Positions 10,672 to 13,371 of a DNA stretch of 13,371 nucleotides are shown here, one piece after another; the first letter of the stretch is position 1; every line of letters begins with the position of its first letter. This DNA comes from a virus: the UHGV virus genome UHGV-0090146. One strand, 5' to 3'. The position numbers and the translations under genes were made by a program. Under the pieces are notes generated by a model. The model was not told where the DNA came from and did no database searches. It worked only from the letters and a program-made list of their open reading frames with translations.

Positions 10672-10869
10672 TCAAACATCCTCATAACACCAATATGCAA
10701 CGCAAATTATTTCAACCAAATCATTTGATGATAAAAATTTATTACCATCATAAATTGCGTGAATTCTTTCACCATCAACAGTTAATGCCATAACATTTCT
10801 TCCTATCTGCGGACGCCAGAGATAGCAATCAAACCATTCAACATCATACCAATCATCTTCTGGACTCAT
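10672..10869 (-). CDS. Hypothetical protein (65 aa), translationally coupled
   Basis: ATG overlaps the stop of the 491-aa gene (ATGA) and is preceded by GAGGT. Its stop lies 1 nt before the ASCH gene start. No recognisable motif. Confidence 0.55.
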   Translation of the reverse strand: MSPEDDWYDVEWFDCYLWRPQIGRNVMALTVDGERIHAIYDGNKFLSSNDLVEIICVAYWCYEDV

Positions 10870-12341
10870 TTCAACCTCGGATTTATGTGCACAGTGTTTC
10901 CGATAAATACGCAGTAACCATCCTCTTCAAGTGATGGCAATACACTTGACCTGAGGCGGTCGTAAATTTTAGGTATTCCTTTGAATGGCCTAACATTTTT
11001 AAGTGAATCATAAAGCCACTTTACCGTTACGTTTGTTTTTCCTTTCTGAGCGGCAGAGCGTAGCTTTTCGGCAACAACATCAAATTCAGAACGCTCGCCA
11101 GCATATCCATTTGATTCCACGGCGTCGGTGAATGTTTTTGTCAGTGCGTCATAAACGCTGATAGCGCGACTAATTTCATTTTCACAGATAATTTTTGACC
11201 TCTTTCCTCCATCACACCAGTTTTCAGCAGCGTGAAATATTGCTGCCAGGCGGATTATTTGCTTATCAGCTTTACCCATTGCACCACGAAGAAGAACATG
11301 GTCCCACTTACCGCCTGGAAGGAAGTTTTTCTCCCACTGGTTTCGCAACATGCCGATCATTCTTGCTGAATCATTGTGAAGAGTCAGTCTTGTTTTTTCT
11401 GCTGACACAACATTATGTATAAATCTTGCATATTCCGACCTCAAGCTGTCTGGCATTGGCTTGCTTACAGGGCAGTCATTAACCATGTCCCAGTGTTCGC
11501 GATAGCCAAGCATTGATTGCTCGCGCAACATCAGGAAACGTTCAGAAAGACCGTTCCCCCTGTCGCCAGCGGCAAGAATGGCATCAATACTTTCATCCTG
11601 CGCAATCACACTTATGTTTCCAAGCACGTAACCAGATGAAACGCCACGACCAACACGAGCAGAGCCAATGAATCCTCCATCCCAGCCCTTCAGGATGACT
11701 TCGGCGTTTGCCTTTCCACCTTCTTTTCCGTAAGAGAGGCCAAGGCATGTGTTAAGGACGCTTGCCTCGTCACTTATCAGGTTAAAAAACCCACCTTCAT
11801 GGATGGCCTGATGCTGAACAGCCTCCGGCGTTGCGTCCGTCAGTGGATATGTAATCGTATAAAGCTCTTCCAGCTTCTCCTTTTCCCGAGCAATATCATC
11901 GCCGATTAGTGCCTTTGCATTCTGATTACTGGCCTCTTTATATGCCTTCATCAACTCTTCAATGCGAAGATTTATTTTTATGATCTGCTTTTCCATCTTT
12001 TTGGAAAGATTGTCATATTCAATCTTCACCGGATTCATGTGCATTGAGTTGATGGCGGTTTTCCCTGCTGATGGAGGCTGAGAAGTAACCACGTAAAGAG
12101 AAACTGGAAGTTCTGAATGGTAATACTCAACGCTAAAGTTTCTCGTCATTGCGCTGGCAACGCACCCAAGCAAATGCATGAACGATGTATTTATTGGGAA
12201 CTGAACGGCACGAGCTGCAGCGATTGCATAACGAGACAGCAAATCAGTCCGGTGCTCACTGGTAAGTTCTGTTTCTGAGTACGTTACATCACGCTCCTTA
12301 CCTTCCTTGATGTCAAGCCACATATTTGAGCTTGGTGTCAT
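10866..12341 (-). CDS. Hypothetical protein (491 aa) with degenerate P-loop NTPase-like motifs; possible DUF3987-like replication-associated protein
   Basis: Long ORF with SQPPSAGKTA (GKT, P-loop-like) and, about 90 aa later, FNLISDEAS (hydrophobic stretch plus DE, Walker-B-like). No canonical SD before ATG 12341 and an alternative Met at 12323, so the start is uncertain. Family assignment is from memory only. Confidence 0.8.
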   Translation of the reverse strand: MTPSSNMWLDIKEGKERDVTYSETELTSEHRTDLLSRYAIAAARAVQFPINTSFMHLLGCVASAMTRNFSVEYYHSELPVSLYVVTSQPPSAGKTAINSMHMNPVKIEYDNLSKKMEKQIIKINLRIEELMKAYKEASNQNAKALIGDDIAREKEKLEELYTITYPLTDATPEAVQHQAIHEGGFFNLISDEASVLNTCLGLSYGKEGGKANAEVILKGWDGGFIGSARVGRGVSSGYVLGNISVIAQDESIDAILAAGDRGNGLSERFLMLREQSMLGYREHWDMVNDCPVSKPMPDSLRSEYARFIHNVVSAEKTRLTLHNDSARMIGMLRNQWEKNFLPGGKWDHVLLRGAMGKADKQIIRLAAIFHAAENWCDGGKRSKIICENEISRAISVYDALTKTFTDAVESNGYAGERSEFDVVAEKLRSAAQKGKTNVTVKWLYDSLKNVRPFKGIPKIYDRLRSSVLPSLEEDGYCVFIGNTVHINPRLK

Positions 12342-12414
12342 GATGGAAGGCGACGCGAGCAGGAGATACTTTTAATTCCCTTGCTTCGTTGAAGATGTCT
12401 TGAGCTGTAATCAT
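12313..12414 (-). CDS. Possible small ORF (33 aa, MITAQDIFNEARELKVSPARVAFHHDTKLKYVA)
   Basis: ATG at 12412-12414 preceded by AAGGG with 7-nt spacer. It overlaps the stop of the upstream small ORF (TGATG) and the 5' end of the 491-aa gene. Too short to validate by sequence alone. Confidence 0.25.
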   Translation of the reverse strand: MITAQDIFNEARELKVSPARVAFHHDTKLKYVA

Positions 12415-12614
12415 CACTGAACCCTTAAAATTGTTAATTCGCATGTGTCCCTGTTGTATTTTGTCCAGTACACAAAGTCGCTTTTCTTCGAAATTTTGGA
12501 CAGGCACATCCTGAAAATAAGCACCTCAACACCTATCGCCTTAAGATTTATAATCTTTTTCTCGTCAACCCTCATTCTTGAGACTATATCGCGAACTCGT
12601 TTCATGTTTGACAT
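12414..12614 (-). CDS. Possible small ORF (66 aa from MSNMKRVRDIV...)
   Basis: Sits directly downstream of a strong minus-strand promoter candidate. Weak RBS. Basic protein with no recognisable domain. Confidence 0.3.
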   Translation of the reverse strand: MSNMKRVRDIVSRMRVDEKKIINLKAIGVEVLIFRMCLSKISKKSDFVYWTKYNRDTCELTILRVQ

Positions 12615-12650
12615 TTTTACCGCCAACCGTGGTTAATCATGGTGTGAAAG

Positions 12651-12679
12651 ATTATATAAAGATATAAACGAAATGGCAA
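12651..12679 (-). promoter_or_regulatory. Sigma70-like promoter for the minus-strand operon
   Basis: On the minus strand: TTGCCA (plus 12674-12679), exact 17-nt spacer, perfect TATAAT (plus 12651-12656). About 30-40 nt upstream of the first minus-strand ORF. Confidence 0.55.
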
Positions 12680-12740
12680 CCATATCATTCTTGGCGTGGT
12701 TTAAGCGACTAAATGGTTATCTGTGGGTAACGTGGGTAAG

Positions 12741-12767
12741 GCGTGGGGCAACCAACCTTCCCCACGA
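12741..12767. repeat. 27-bp repeat copy 1 (GCGTGGGGCAACCAACCTTCCCCACGA), internally palindromic
   Basis: Identical to the copy at 12929-12955. Contains inverted arms CGTGGGG / CCCCACG separated by 11 nt. Confidence 0.85.
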
Positions 12768-12928
12768 AGTTTTCCTATAAGTATATGTAATATAATAAAA
12801 TTATTATTATTTGGGTTAATGGGTACAAATGGATTATTTGAATATATTTATAAGGGGATGGGTATGAAATCTTCCCCTTTTTACCCACGAAAAATAAAAA
12901 CATTCAAATCAATTATTTACGATGAAAA

Positions 12929-12955
12929 GCGTGGGGCAACCAACCTTCCCCACGA
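12929..12955. repeat. 27-bp repeat copy 2 (identical to 12741-12767)
   Basis: Exact 27/27 match to copy 1, 188 bp away, in the same orientation. Confidence 0.85.
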
Positions 12956-13008
12956 CCTGCCCCACGGGCAAAAATTTACCCCACGAGCACGTTTTTAACG
13001 CATTCCTG

Positions 13009-13037
13009 TTGACGTGGAATCATAGCTGATGTAGATT
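13009..13037 (+). promoter_or_regulatory. Sigma70-like promoter for the rightward small-gene operon
   Basis: TTGACG (13009-13014), 17-nt spacer, TAGATT (13032-13037). GAGGGTGAAGAG RBS and ATG at 13068 lie about 30 nt downstream. Confidence 0.5.
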
Positions 13038-13067
13038 GAACTCATCGAAACAAACGAGGGTGAAGAG

Positions 13068-13214
13068 ATGAAAATCAAAGACCGTGAAGAATTTGAAGAT
13101 GCACAGGCTATGGCTCGCATTGCAGTTGAACGCACAAACAACAGCATTCCAGCAGATGCATTCTGGAACGCTGCAATGCAGGCATTAATCTCAGCGTATG
13201 GGTTAAGCAAATGA
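13068..13214 (+). CDS. Hypothetical small protein (48 aa, MKIKDREEFEDAQAMARIAVERTNN...)
   Basis: Not in the ORF track because it is short. RBS GAGGGTG upstream. Its stop overlaps the next ATG (ATGA). Confidence 0.45.
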   Translation: MKIKDREEFEDAQAMARIAVERTNNSIPADAFWNAAMQALISAYGLSK

Positions 13215-13306
13215 CAGGCGCATCATTTGAACTTATCGCCAGTCTGGTTATCGTGGCATTCATCATTATCGCAGTGGCAGTTTCTAAATCAGGATATAAG
13301 GAGTAA
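13211..13306 (+). CDS. Hypothetical small membrane peptide (31 aa, single predicted TM helix)
   Basis: MTGASFELIASLVIVAFIIIAVAVSKSGYKE has a hydrophobic core flanked by charged residues. ATGA overlap with the upstream gene. The downstream AAGGAG serves the next gene. Confidence 0.35.
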   Translation: MTGASFELIASLVIVAFIIIAVAVSKSGYKE

Positions 13307-13309
13307 TAA

Positions 13310-13371
13310 ATGGCAAAGACTATCTATCGTCGCGAAAAACTGGAACAAGAACTCGGTCACGTTGGCGCGCA
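13310..13371 (+). CDS. Hypothetical protein, 5' end only (MAKTIYRREKLEQELGHVGA...)
   Basis: ATG at 13310 preceded by AAGGAG at optimal spacing. ORF runs off the window end. Confidence 0.5.
   Translation, partial: MAKTIYRREKLEQELGHVGA

What the first reader, a model, noticed from the sequence alone, without database searches (positions are those of the whole stretch)
12741..12955. Two perfect 27-bp direct repeats, each an internal palindrome
GCGTGGGGCAACCAACCTTCCCCACGA occurs identically at 12741-12767 and 12929-12955. Each copy carries inverted 7-bp arms (CGTGGGG / CCCCACG) separated by 11 nt. That is a typical dimeric DNA-binding-protein site, or a stem-loop if transcribed. Exact 27-bp identity 188 bp apart in an otherwise AT-rich non-coding stretch is unlikely to be chance.
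Basis: seen in the sequence. Interest (0 to 1): 0.65.

Follow-up and report, generated by a model that had tools for sequence, protein, structure and literature searches.

The report
Likely phage replication origin repeats
The two identical 27-bp palindromes are real and belong to a conserved array of short TGGGG/CCCCA sites flanking a very AT-rich stretch, most likely the phage's replication origin, read by its own MCM-like helicase; this is a familiar kind of origin, not yet described for this phage group.

Summary
Observation confirmed: GCGTGGGGCAACCAACCTTCCCCACGA occurs exactly at 12741-12767 and 12929-12955 (7-bp arms, 11-nt spacer; 0/200 shuffles). The window is a Skatevirus-like siphovirus (relatives Vi II-E1, Akira, IME207). 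The Vi II-E1 and Akira GenBank records already mark these repeats, without a function.

The palindromes are not isolated. They belong to two inverted arrays of half-sites (consensus T-N-CCCCA-C-G) that flank the most AT-rich DNA of the genome, between divergent sigma70-like promoters.

The TGGGG/CCCCA cores are invariant in all 38 palindromes of 19 distinct relatives. Unpaired half-sites are conserved too. The spacer sequence inside the palindromes varies.

The arrays follow the DUF3987 (MCM-like, C-terminal winged-helix) helicase down to 50% identity and across a gene-order change. Phages with the same right-hand operon but another helicase or primase-polymerase carry other repeat families in the same slot.

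The cluster is unique in a 45-kb relative genome and sits at the GC-skew minimum.

Best reading (about 0.6): an iteron-type replication origin served by a self-loading helicase, working like SaPI Rep/ori. No binding or origin activity has been shown.

The RNA hairpin, DnaA-box, cos and global-operator readings are weak.

The window also carries a 43-bp spacer deletion and a 5-bp frameshift in the helicase gene.

The parts
12651..12679 (-). Leftward sigma70-like promoter (TTGCCA-17-TATAAT) for the small gene and helicase operon
   Evidence: 11 of 12 match. Relatives with other left-hand genes have an equivalent leftward promoter beside the left array (read from the sequences).
12723..12739 (-). 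Two unpaired half-sites of the left array (GTGGGTAA at 12723-12730, CGTGGGTAA at 12731-12739; TTACCCAC on the minus strand), 9-11 bp apart and in the same orientation as the left arm of copy 1
   Evidence: Conserved GGG/TGGG islands in the 18-sequence alignment. Two or three such direct sites occur in every relative.
12741..12767 (.). Copy 1 of the 27-bp repeat: inverted half-sites CGTGGGGCA / TTCCCCACG (TGGGG-N11-CCCCA)
   Evidence: Always 34 nt before TAAGTATATG in all relatives. Core invariant.
12768..12928 (.). AT-rich spacer and putative DNA-unwinding region. It includes the nearly invariant core TAAGTATATGTAATATAATAAAATTATTATTATTTGGGTTAATGGGT (12778-12824), and the junction of the window-specific 43-bp deletion lies after 12824
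   Evidence: GC 18-30%. Near-invariant columns. In Vi II-E1 this is the lowest-GC 200 bp of the 45-kb genome, 22.5% against 46%. Deletion shown.
12852..12889 (.). Inner degenerate sites: AAGGGGA-N13-TTCCCCTT (12852-12879) and the unpaired half-site TTACCCACG (12881-12889)
   Evidence: conserved. In the Klebsiella clade this position carries two clean CCCCA sites.
12929..12955 (.). Copy 2 of the 27-bp repeat (TGGGG-N11-CCCCA)
12956..12985 (+). Two unpaired half-sites of the right array: CCTGCCCCACGG (12956-12967) and TTTACCCCACG (12975-12985), in the same orientation as the right arm of copy 2
   Evidence: Invariant CCCCA islands. Present in all relatives, including Ymer at 10-bp spacing.
13009..13037 (+). 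Rightward sigma70-like promoter (TTGACG-17-TAGATT) of the small-gene operon that leads to the terminase genes. Homology with phages that carry other repeat families begins just upstream, at about 12993
   Evidence: The -35 element is invariant. Matches of more than 100 Salmonella phages start at query position 594-610.
10866..12414 (-). DUF3987 / SF6 MCM-like replicative helicase with a C-terminal winged helix, the candidate reader of the sites. In this window a 5-bp deletion between 12343 and 12342 shifts the frame, so the 491-aa ORF restarts at 12341
   Evidence: Pfam and PHROG matches. Frameshift. AlphaFold2 model with pLDDT 91 and H-S-H-H-S-S order at residues 442-512. Foldseek top hits are MCM subunits. 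Literature: PMC4889955, PMC11724360.
12414..12614 (-). Small variable gene (66 codons) between the helicase and the left promoter; not the site reader
   Evidence: At least 5 unrelated families occupy this slot in phages with the same sites, and one of them also occurs with a different repeat family.

Best explanation
The two 27-bp palindromes are the innermost, paired members of two oppositely oriented arrays of a short recognition site (T-N-CCCCA-C-G; TGGGG on the other strand). These arrays bracket the most AT-rich, easily melted DNA of the genome. Together they form the phage's origin of replication.

Proposed mechanism (inferred, not shown): the phage's own MCM-like DUF3987 helicase recognises the sites on duplex DNA through its C-terminal winged-helix domain. 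One oligomer assembles on each array in opposite orientation. The AT-rich core between them melts and the helicases load themselves. The neighbouring DnaG-type primase then primes bidirectional synthesis. Transcription from the flanking divergent promoters may help opening.

Shown here: the site arrays, their conservation, their uniqueness in the genome, the AT-rich core, their co-inheritance with this helicase type, and the predicted fold of the helicase. Inferred: who binds, melting, loading and origin activity.
For: (1) Architecture. The left array is TGGG(G) x3 then CCCCA, and the right array is TGGGG then CCCCA x3, so they are mirror images. They flank 160-200 bp of 18-30% GC.

(2) Conservation. 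TGGGG and CCCCA are invariant in 38 of 38 palindromes of 19 distinct relatives. The spacer length is fixed at 11 (10 in some right copies) while its sequence varies. Unpaired half-sites are conserved islands. Across 146 sites, T at position -2 occurs in 91%, although it was not part of the search pattern.

(3) Double dissociation. The arrays persist with the DUF3987 helicase at 87%, 63% and 50% protein identity and in three gene contexts. Phages that share the same right-hand promoter and operon but carry a different helicase (LPSTLL, 64795_sal3; BLASTP E = 1.9) or a primase-polymerase (Sf11) have GGATAAA-type or CGGGAAGC-type repeats in the same slot.

(4) The small gene next to the array swaps among at least 5 families without any change of site.

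(5) Genome-wide, Vi II-E1 has only these two palindromes, and 6 of 14 CCCCAC fall in one 400-bp window. The spacer is the lowest-GC 200 bp of the genome, and the cumulative GC-skew minimum (42187) lies beside copy 2.

(6) The helicase model has pLDDT 91, an MCM-like fold and a C-terminal winged-helix topology. DUF3987 proteins have been described as SF6 replicative helicases with a C-terminal wHTH (PMC4889955), and one is a proven helicase (PMC11724360). The C-terminal 80 aa are about 93% identical between clades, matching the invariant core of the sites.

(7) A worked precedent exists: the SaPI Rep winged helix reads penta- or hexanucleotide iterons that lie half on each side of an AT-rich centre in opposite directions (PMC9371898).
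Against: No experiment shows binding, melting or origin activity for any member of this phage group, and I found no paper on it.

The GC-skew minimum coincides with the switch of transcription direction, which alone can produce it.

Winged-helix domains of MCM proteins are often protein-interaction modules rather than sequence readers.

The association between helicase type and repeat family rests on three module types, so linkage to another unseen factor is possible.

T1-like phages with 35-40% identical DUF3987 helicases show no CCCCA array within 3.5 kb.

The arrays also lie 55-110 bp upstream of two promoters, a position compatible with transcription control.

The window's own helicase is frameshifted and its spacer is shortened, so this particular copy may be defective or mis-assembled.
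Confidence: 0.6

Rival explanations
1. The sites are operators or activator sites for a transcription factor (phage- or host-encoded, possibly the helicase itself acting as an autoregulator) that controls the two divergent early promoters. The palindromes are its high-affinity dimer sites.
For: The arrays sit between two good sigma70-like promoters, about 55-110 bp upstream of each. The sites are palindromic and conserved. Origins and regulatory regions often overlap, so this could hold in addition to the origin role.
Against: The sites co-vary with neither promoter. The rightward promoter is identical in phages that carry quite different repeats, and the leftward promoter and first gene change while the sites stay. 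No site overlaps a -35 or -10 element. The cluster is unique in a 45-kb genome, so this is not a regulon. No conserved small DNA-binding gene travels with the sites.
Confidence: 0.2
2. The palindromes act as nucleic-acid hairpins. They could be RNA stem-loops (terminator, insulator or processing signal) or single-stranded DNA hairpins or cruciforms used for priming or nicking.
For: The 7-bp G+C-rich stem is predicted on both strands (RNA -12.2/-12.3 kcal/mol; DNA -7.5, z = -2.2). In relatives with the CCTG variant the stem reaches 10 pairs and is followed by T5 on the minus strand of copy 2. Pair positions 10/20 and 4/26 show double changes (CG/AU/UA; GC/UA/CG), and 91.6% of cells are paired against about 48% when slid.
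Against: The same half-site is conserved where it has no partner. The loop is 11 nt and the z-scores for RNA are only -1.2 to -1.7. No terminator is called in the window. The copies lie upstream of both promoters. 5-7 of 25 versions break the pairs outside the invariant core. There is no Rfam family match. Symmetry is equally expected for a two-fold protein site.
Confidence: 0.08
3. The region is the packaging recognition site or physical genome end (pac or cos), with the repeats as terminase-binding sites.
For: Linear GenBank records of Akira, KpV2811 and Ymer are opened inside or at the edge of the AT-rich spacer. Akira is opened almost exactly midway between the two copies. The window's 43-bp deletion ends at that same point. 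The small terminase gene lies about 2.7 kb downstream in the same operon.
Against: PhageTerm analyses of relatives report headful packaging with permuted, terminally redundant genomes and no fixed end (STGO-35-1, PMC8954984; KlebP_265, PMC11769527). The record ends differ from phage to phage and fit low-coverage assembly breaks in 20% GC DNA. The repeats follow the helicase type, not the terminase or right operon.
Confidence: 0.05
4. The half-sites are host DnaA boxes, so this would be a DnaA-dependent origin or a DnaA titration site.
For: One site (12722-12730, TTACCCACA) is one mismatch from TTATNCACA. The LPSTLL-type repeats (TGGATAA/TTATCC) also resemble part of a DnaA box.
Against: Of 146 sites, 145 are 3-5 mismatches from the DnaA box. 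Boxes with at most 1 mismatch are not enriched in the window (11 against 15.4 expected). The invariant CCCCA does not coincide with the box's conserved CACA, and positions +5 and +6 vary between clades.
Confidence: 0.04

Closest known systems
SaPI (Staphylococcus aureus pathogenicity island) ori with its Rep self-loading helicase
   Same: Short penta- or hexanucleotide iterons, about half on each side of a central AT-rich region, with sites on the two sides pointing in opposite directions. The initiator is itself the replicative helicase and carries a C-terminal winged helix. The origin is encoded next to the helicase gene (PMC9371898).
   Different: The helicase here is DUF3987, SF6 and MCM-like. 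Foldseek hits to SaPI5 PriRep are weak (E = 0.36-0.42). The arrays lie upstream of the gene in a divergent promoter region rather than immediately downstream of rep. The innermost sites form TGGGG-N11-CCCCA palindromes. The element is in a virulent siphovirus of Enterobacteria, not a satellite. Binding is unproven.
Bacteriophage lambda ori (O-protein iterons plus AT-rich tract)
   Same: Each iteron is an imperfect inverted repeat of about 19 bp bound by an initiator dimer, and an adjacent AT-rich tract is unwound (PMC7466680).
   Different: Lambda has four tandem iterons on one side of the AT tract, located inside the O gene. Its initiator is not a helicase and recruits host DnaB through P. 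No O or P homologue was seen among the neighbours tested here.
Satellite phage P4 ori/crr with alpha primase-helicase (from my own knowledge, not checked here)
   Same: An initiator-helicase with a C-terminal winged-helix origin-binding domain reads short octamer repeats that occur in both orientations.
   Different: P4 uses two separated cis regions (ori and crr), and its SF3-type helicase is fused to a primase. Here there is a single locus and a separate DnaG-type primase.
Polyomavirus and papillomavirus core origins (SV40 large T antigen, E1; from my own knowledge)
   Same: Pentanucleotide sites (GAGGC) are arranged as inverted pairs in a 27-bp palindrome next to an AT tract. The initiator-helicase assembles as two oppositely oriented hexamers.
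   Different: These are eukaryotic viruses with SF3 helicases and a compact 64-bp core. Here the arrays are about 190-230 bp apart.
Archaeal oriC (ORB elements flanking a DUE, with Orc1/Cdc6 loading MCM; from my own knowledge)
   Same: Inverted recognition boxes containing G-runs bracket an AT-rich unwinding element, and the helicase loaded is an MCM.
   Different: There a separate initiator (Orc1/Cdc6) reads the boxes. No such gene is seen here, so the MCM-like helicase would have to load itself.
GenBank repeat_region features of Salmonella phage Vi II-E1 (AM491472) and Akira (MK599416)
   Same: They mark the same element: 'repeat of sequence GTGGGGCAACCAACCTGCCCCACGA' x2, and the arm repeats annotated in Akira.
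   Different: These are descriptive annotations only. No function, no half-site arrays and no link to the helicase are recorded there.

Membership tests
Iteron-type origin served by a self-loading initiator-helicase (SaPI Rep/ori type) | Six to twelve short (5-6 nt core) repeats | tested here: met
   8-9 TGGG(G)/CCCCA sites within 12723-12985. 7-11 sites in relatives.
Iteron-type origin served by a self-loading initiator-helicase (SaPI Rep/ori type) | A central AT-rich region with repeats on both sides, and at least two on each side pointing in opposite directions | tested here: met
   Left array T,T,T,C and right array T,C,C,C around 18-30% GC DNA. The spacer is the lowest-GC stretch of the Vi II-E1 genome.
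Iteron-type origin served by a self-loading initiator-helicase (SaPI Rep/ori type) | Origin immediately downstream of the rep gene | tested here: not met
   The arrays lie upstream of the helicase operon, separated from it by a small gene and a promoter. In Ymer they are 1.7 kb upstream.
Iteron-type origin served by a self-loading initiator-helicase (SaPI Rep/ori type) | Helicase with a C-terminal winged-helix domain | tested here: met
   AlphaFold2 model with pLDDT 91 and H-S-H-H-S-S order at residues 442-512. Literature statement for DUF3987 proteins (PMC4889955). This is a predicted fold only.
Iteron-type origin served by a self-loading initiator-helicase (SaPI Rep/ori type) | Helicase homologous to SaPI Rep | tested here: not met
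   Foldseek top hits are MCM2-7 and archaeal MCM (probability about 1). SaPI5 PriRep scores only E = 0.36-0.42, probability 0.21-0.35. PDB sequence search found nothing.
Iteron-type origin served by a self-loading initiator-helicase (SaPI Rep/ori type) | Specific binding of the helicase to the repeats, melting of the AT region, and origin activity in vivo | not testable with these tools
   Only indirect evidence: the repeat family changes with the helicase type.
Lambda-type ori | Iterons inside the initiator (O) gene, with an O/P-type initiator and loader | tested here: not met
   The arrays are intergenic. The ORF over them (12858-12998) is not conserved. The neighbours are a DUF3987 helicase, a DnaG-type primase and an SNF2 helicase.
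Rho-independent terminator | G+C-rich stem, short loop, then a U-run | tested here: not met
   No terminator is called in 12200-13371. The loop is 11 nt, and copy 2 on the minus strand is followed by CTTTTC. The relatives' CCTG variant gives a borderline call on the minus strand of copy 2 only.
Known structured RNA (Rfam 15) | Match to a covariance model | tested here: not met
   No match at E <= 1 in 12550-13150.
DnaA-box cluster | Several 9-mers fitting TTATNCACA | tested here: not met
   One site within 1 mismatch and no enrichment. 145 of 146 family sites have 3-5 mismatches.
cos / pac site | Physical genome ends or the packaging series start at the site | tested here: inconclusive
   Several records are opened here, but published PhageTerm results for relatives indicate headful, permuted genomes. 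No reads were available to test this directly.

The most novel reading that the evidence does not exclude
The DUF3987 MCM-like helicase of these phages is a self-loading initiator. Its winged helix reads TGGGG pentanucleotides, and the two mirror-image arrays position two helicase rings in opposite orientation around the AT-rich core. That would be a bacterial-virus counterpart of MCM double-hexamer loading that needs no ORC/Cdc6-type loader. The same genomic slot would then be a plug-in socket where different initiator and iteron pairs (DUF3987/CCCCA, D5-like helicase/GGATAAA, primase-polymerase/GGGAAGC) are exchanged as units around a shared unwinding core (CTAAGTATATGTA...).
Probability: 0.35. 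Interest if true: 0.65.

Novelty: new member of a known kind. Interest (0 to 1): 0.45.

Why it matters
No replication origin has been defined for this large and widely isolated group of Salmonella, E. coli, Klebsiella and Pectobacterium siphoviruses, which are often proposed for biocontrol and typing. Nor is it known how phage MCM-like DUF3987 helicases find and load onto DNA.

This region gives a precise and cheap hypothesis to test: a 9-bp half-site, two arrays, and one candidate domain. It also offers a natural set of swapped initiator and repeat modules for specificity experiments.

There are practical consequences too. The region explains why assemblies break here and why annotation pipelines call spurious ORFs over it. 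It would also be the piece to carry in phage-based vectors, or to avoid in engineered deletions.

Tried and rejected
- **Coding reading.** ORF 12723-12998, and its ATG version 12858-12998, has no Pfam or PHROG hit. It is interrupted by stops in Vi II-E1 and pYD38-A, so I rejected it.
- **Known RNA family.** Rfam search found none.
- **Terminator.** None is called in the window.
- **DnaA boxes.** Rejected.
- **cos site.** The coincidence of Akira's record end, the window's 43-bp deletion junction and other record ends looked promising. However, PhageTerm reports for relatives say headful and permuted, and the ends differ among records.
- **Small adjacent gene as binder** (AP2-domain protein in Akira, the 66-codon gene here). 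At least 5 unrelated families occupy this slot with the same sites, and one family occurs with two different repeat types. Rejected.
- **Covariation between half-site flank variants (CCCCACG against CCCCAA/G) and the helicase C-terminus.** The domain is about 93% conserved between clades and too uniform to be informative.
- **PDB sequence search with the helicase.** Nothing found.
- **T1-like phages with 35-40% identical helicases.** No CCCCA array within 3.5 kb, only other repeats, so the design could not be generalised that far.
- **Pickard et al. 2008** (the Vi II-E1 genome paper, which may comment on the repeat) could not be retrieved.
- **Exact-sequence look-up of the window's 491-aa product.** Not on record.

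Full report
**1. The observation**

The sequence GCGTGGGGCAACCAACCTTCCCCACGA is present at 12741-12767 and again at 12929-12955 (family D4). Each copy has arms CGTGGGG and CCCCACG around an 11-nt spacer. A 25-mer search allowing three mismatches finds only these two places, and none appear in 200 shuffles.

It is incomplete, however. The hexamer CCCACG occurs 12 times in the window against 3.06 expected, and eight of these lie between 12731 and 12985. So the palindromes are embedded in a cluster of the same short site.

**2. Where the window comes from, and prior annotation**

The region matches a group of about 45-48 kb siphoviruses of Salmonella, E. coli, Shigella and Klebsiella: Vi II-E1, Akira, IME207, C1, HC6 and Bas78/79. 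The BASEL paper treats these as Skatevirus and relatives (PMC11990801).

The GenBank record of Vi II-E1 already carries two repeat_region features, 'repeat of sequence GTGGGGCAACCAACCTGCCCCACGA'. Akira's record marks the arms. Neither gives a function. I found no paper that discusses the region, and the 2008 Vi II-E1 paper was not retrievable.

**3. Anatomy**

To the left lies a leftward operon. It has a strong sigma70-like promoter (TTGCCA-17-TATAAT, 12679 to 12651), a 66-codon gene, and a DUF3987 helicase. A DnaG-type primase and an SNF2-type helicase lie further on. To the right, a rightward promoter (TTGACG-17-TAGATT, 13009-13037) drives small genes that lead to the terminase genes in relatives.

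Between the promoters the order of elements is:
- two unpaired half-sites GTGGGTAA and CGTGGGTAA (12723-12739)
- copy 1
- the AT-rich spacer
- an inner degenerate pair AAGGGGA...TTCCCCTT and the unpaired site TTACCCACG (12852-12889)
- copy 2
- CCTGCCCCACGG (12956-12967)
- TTTACCCCACG (12975-12985)

Written as orientations, the left array is T,T,T,C and the right array is T,C,C,C. They are mirror images.

**4. Comparative evidence**

I collected the region from GenBank relatives and from IMG/VR contigs, giving 19 distinct versions.

- All versions share the same layout.
- TGGGG and CCCCA are invariant in all 38 palindromes. The spacer is 11 nt (10 in the right copy of the Klebsiella clade), but its sequence varies.
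- The left palindrome always starts 34 nt before TAAGTATATG.
- In an 18-sequence alignment the unpaired half-sites stand out as conserved islands. The first ~47 bp of the spacer, TAAGTATATGTAATATAAT...TTAATGGGT, are nearly invariant.
- Over 146 CCCCA sites from these regions, T occurs two bases upstream in 91%, C follows in 56% and then G in 55%. This gives the half-site T-N-CCCCA-C-G.
- The two copies are identical to each other in some genomes (this window, Lewi, IME207, L035, L040) and differ in the spacer in others. The exact 27-bp identity is therefore lineage-specific homogenisation on top of a conserved core.

**5. Hairpin or protein site?**

As RNA the element folds into a 7-bp stem with an 11-nt loop (-12.2 and -12.3 kcal/mol; z = -1.7 and -1.2). 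As DNA it gives -7.5 kcal/mol (z = -2.2 and -1.7).

On 25 distinct versions, five pairs never vary. Position 11/19 is A-T in 23. Positions 10/20 and 4/26 show double changes, but also 5-7 unpaired cases, and position 3/27 has 7 unpaired cases.

Symmetry of this kind is expected for a two-fold protein site as much as for a stem. Several facts argue against a hairpin as the primary function:
- the same half-site is conserved where it has no partner
- both copies lie upstream of the promoters
- there is no Rfam match
- no terminator is called in the window

A borderline terminator-like call appears only on the minus strand of copy 2, in relatives with the CCTG variant.

**6. Who goes with the sites: a natural experiment**

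More than 100 Salmonella phages match the window only from about 12993 rightwards, that is, from the rightward promoter on. I read three of them.

| Phage | Replication protein in the slot | Repeat family in the intergenic space |
|---|---|---|
| LPSTLL, 64795_sal3 | 495-aa helicase (phrog_33132, no Pfam match, BLASTP E = 1.9 against the DUF3987 helicase) | TGGATAA / GGATAAAAG-type repeats around an AT-rich core that still contains CTAAGTATATGTAT |
| Sf11 | 777-aa primase-polymerase | at least seven CGGGAAGC / GCTTCCCG repeats |

LPSTLL and 64795_sal3 keep the same gene order as the window.

Conversely, the CCCCA arrays persist wherever the DUF3987 helicase is present:
- in the Klebsiella, Vibrio and Aeromonas clade, at 87% protein identity
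- in a metagenomic contig with a 63% identical helicase
- in Pectobacterium phage Ymer, at 50% identity. There the helicase lies inside the rightward operon 1.7 kb away and the left neighbour is the terminase module, yet both arrays and the AT-rich centre are present.

The small gene next to the left array belongs to at least five unrelated families in phages with identical sites. One of those families occurs with both CCCCA and GGATAAA arrays. The sites therefore follow the helicase type. They do not follow either promoter, the adjacent small gene or the right-hand operon.

**7. The helicase**

An 88-sequence alignment gave an AlphaFold2 model with mean pLDDT 91.1 and pTM 0.87. Its last 75 residues have the helix-strand-helix-helix-strand-strand order of a winged helix. 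Foldseek against the PDB returns MCM2-7 and archaeal MCM subunits as the top hits, with probabilities near 1.

This agrees with Kazlauskas et al. [quoted passage not shown] It also agrees with the biochemical demonstration of helicase activity for a PriCT-DUF3987 protein (PMC11724360). The C-terminal 80 residues are about 93% identical between clades, in line with the invariant core of the sites.

**8. Genome-wide context**

In the complete 45,051-bp Vi II-E1 genome:
- there are only two TGGGG-N9-13-CCCCA palindromes, and 6 of 14 CCCCAC fall in one 400-bp window
- the 200 bp between the copies are the lowest-GC stretch of the genome, 22.5% against 46%
- the cumulative GC-skew minimum lies at 42187, beside copy 2

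The skew argument is weakened because transcription also diverges at this point.

**9. Interpretation**

The best-supported reading is a replication origin of the iteron-plus-unwinding-element kind, read by the phage's own helicase.

The closest worked example is the SaPI origin. There the winged helix of the Rep helicase recognises penta- or hexanucleotide iterons placed half on each side of an AT-rich centre and pointing in opposite directions, and Rep loads itself (PMC9371898). Lambda's iterons, each a 19-bp imperfect inverted repeat bound by an O dimer, are a second parallel (PMC7466680).

The element works like these systems but is not a member of either family. The helicase is MCM-like rather than Rep-like, the arrays lie upstream in a divergent promoter region, and there is no O or P homologue among the neighbours tested. 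I put this reading at about 0.6, because binding, melting and origin firing are all inferred.

The main rival, at about 0.2, is a local transcription-control array for the two promoters. That role could also coexist with origin function. The hairpin, packaging-site and DnaA-box readings are each below 0.1, for the reasons given above.

**10. Peculiarities of this window**

Compared with every relative, including three independent assemblies that encode a 99% identical helicase, the window has two deletions:
- It lacks 43 bp of the AT-rich spacer after 12824, so the copies are 188 bp apart instead of 231.
- It lacks 5 bp in the helicase gene between 12343 and 12342. This shifts the frame, so the '491-aa protein' is a 517-aa protein that restarts at Met26.

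The spacer deletion ends exactly where Akira's linear record was opened. Whether these are assembly errors or a real variant cannot be decided without the reads.

**11. Verdict**

The feature is real, strongly conserved and functional-looking. It has already been noticed as a repeat in database records, but no function was assigned. It is most likely the replication origin of this phage group, a new member of a known kind of origin. Its added interest is that the presumed initiator is an MCM-like helicase whose loading mechanism in phages is unknown.

Noticed in passing
window 12339-12414 (minus strand): The DUF3987 helicase gene has a 5-bp deletion between 12343 and 12342 relative to all relatives. 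The true start is ATG 12414, the frame breaks after codon 24, and the 491-aa ORF restarts at Met26 (12341). This is either a sequencing or assembly error, or a real N-terminally truncated helicase.
   Followed up: partly
window 12824/12825: A 43-bp deletion of AT-rich spacer (AATATTATTATTCATATTATAGATAGTAATTAACATAATATTA) that is present in every relative. The deleted piece holds the best promoter-like site of the spacer in relatives (TTAATA-17-TATAAT on the minus strand in Lewi). The junction coincides with the end of Akira's linear GenBank record.
   Followed up: partly
window 12778-12824; L044 2697-2730; L045 2699-2735: The motif CTAAGTATATGTA(A/T)T, just inside the left array, is shared with LPSTLL and 64795_sal3, which have a different helicase and different repeats. 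It is therefore an initiator-independent element (a host-factor site, a promoter, or the melting start).
   Followed up: no
L002 1; L010 1; L005 3521; L011 692; L049 1; L056 1: The linear GenBank records of Akira, KpV2811 and Ymer are all opened inside or at the edge of this AT-rich spacer, although relatives are reported as headful-packaged and permuted. These are probably low-coverage assembly breaks. KpV2811 appears to lack about 35-40 bp at the join.
   Followed up: partly
window 12858-12998; L009 3694-3852; L004 3612-3791; L056 1-153: Annotation pipelines call small CDSs across the site arrays in several relatives. The equivalent window ORF is not conserved (early stops in Vi II-E1 and pYD38-A), so these calls are likely spurious.
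   Followed up: yes
window 12414-12614 (minus strand) and equivalents in L003, L004, L005, L006, L009, L048, L049: The small gene just upstream of the helicase is a replacement hot spot with at least five unrelated families, including an AP2-domain protein. Many of them end in a hydrophobic strand followed by R-(V/I)-x, which hints at a common small fold.
   Followed up: partly
L044 2640-2690 and 2836-2936; L046 190-440: Two other repeat families occupy the same genomic slot in phages with other replication proteins: TGGATAA/GGATAAAAG (resembling half of a DnaA box) with a D5-like helicase, and CGGGAAGC/GCTTCCCG with a primase-polymerase.
   Followed up: partly
L050 100-260: T1-like Klebsiella phage RCIP0001, whose DUF3987 helicase is 40% identical, has six direct (G)CAATCA repeats upstream of the operon that holds the helicase, and no CCCCA array.
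   Followed up: no
window 12852-12889: A third, degenerate palindrome AAGGGGA-N13-TTCCCCTT is followed by a T-run and an unpaired TTACCCACG site inside the spacer. It is conserved across the Salmonella/E. coli clade, and Lewi gives a terminator-like call there.
   Followed up: no
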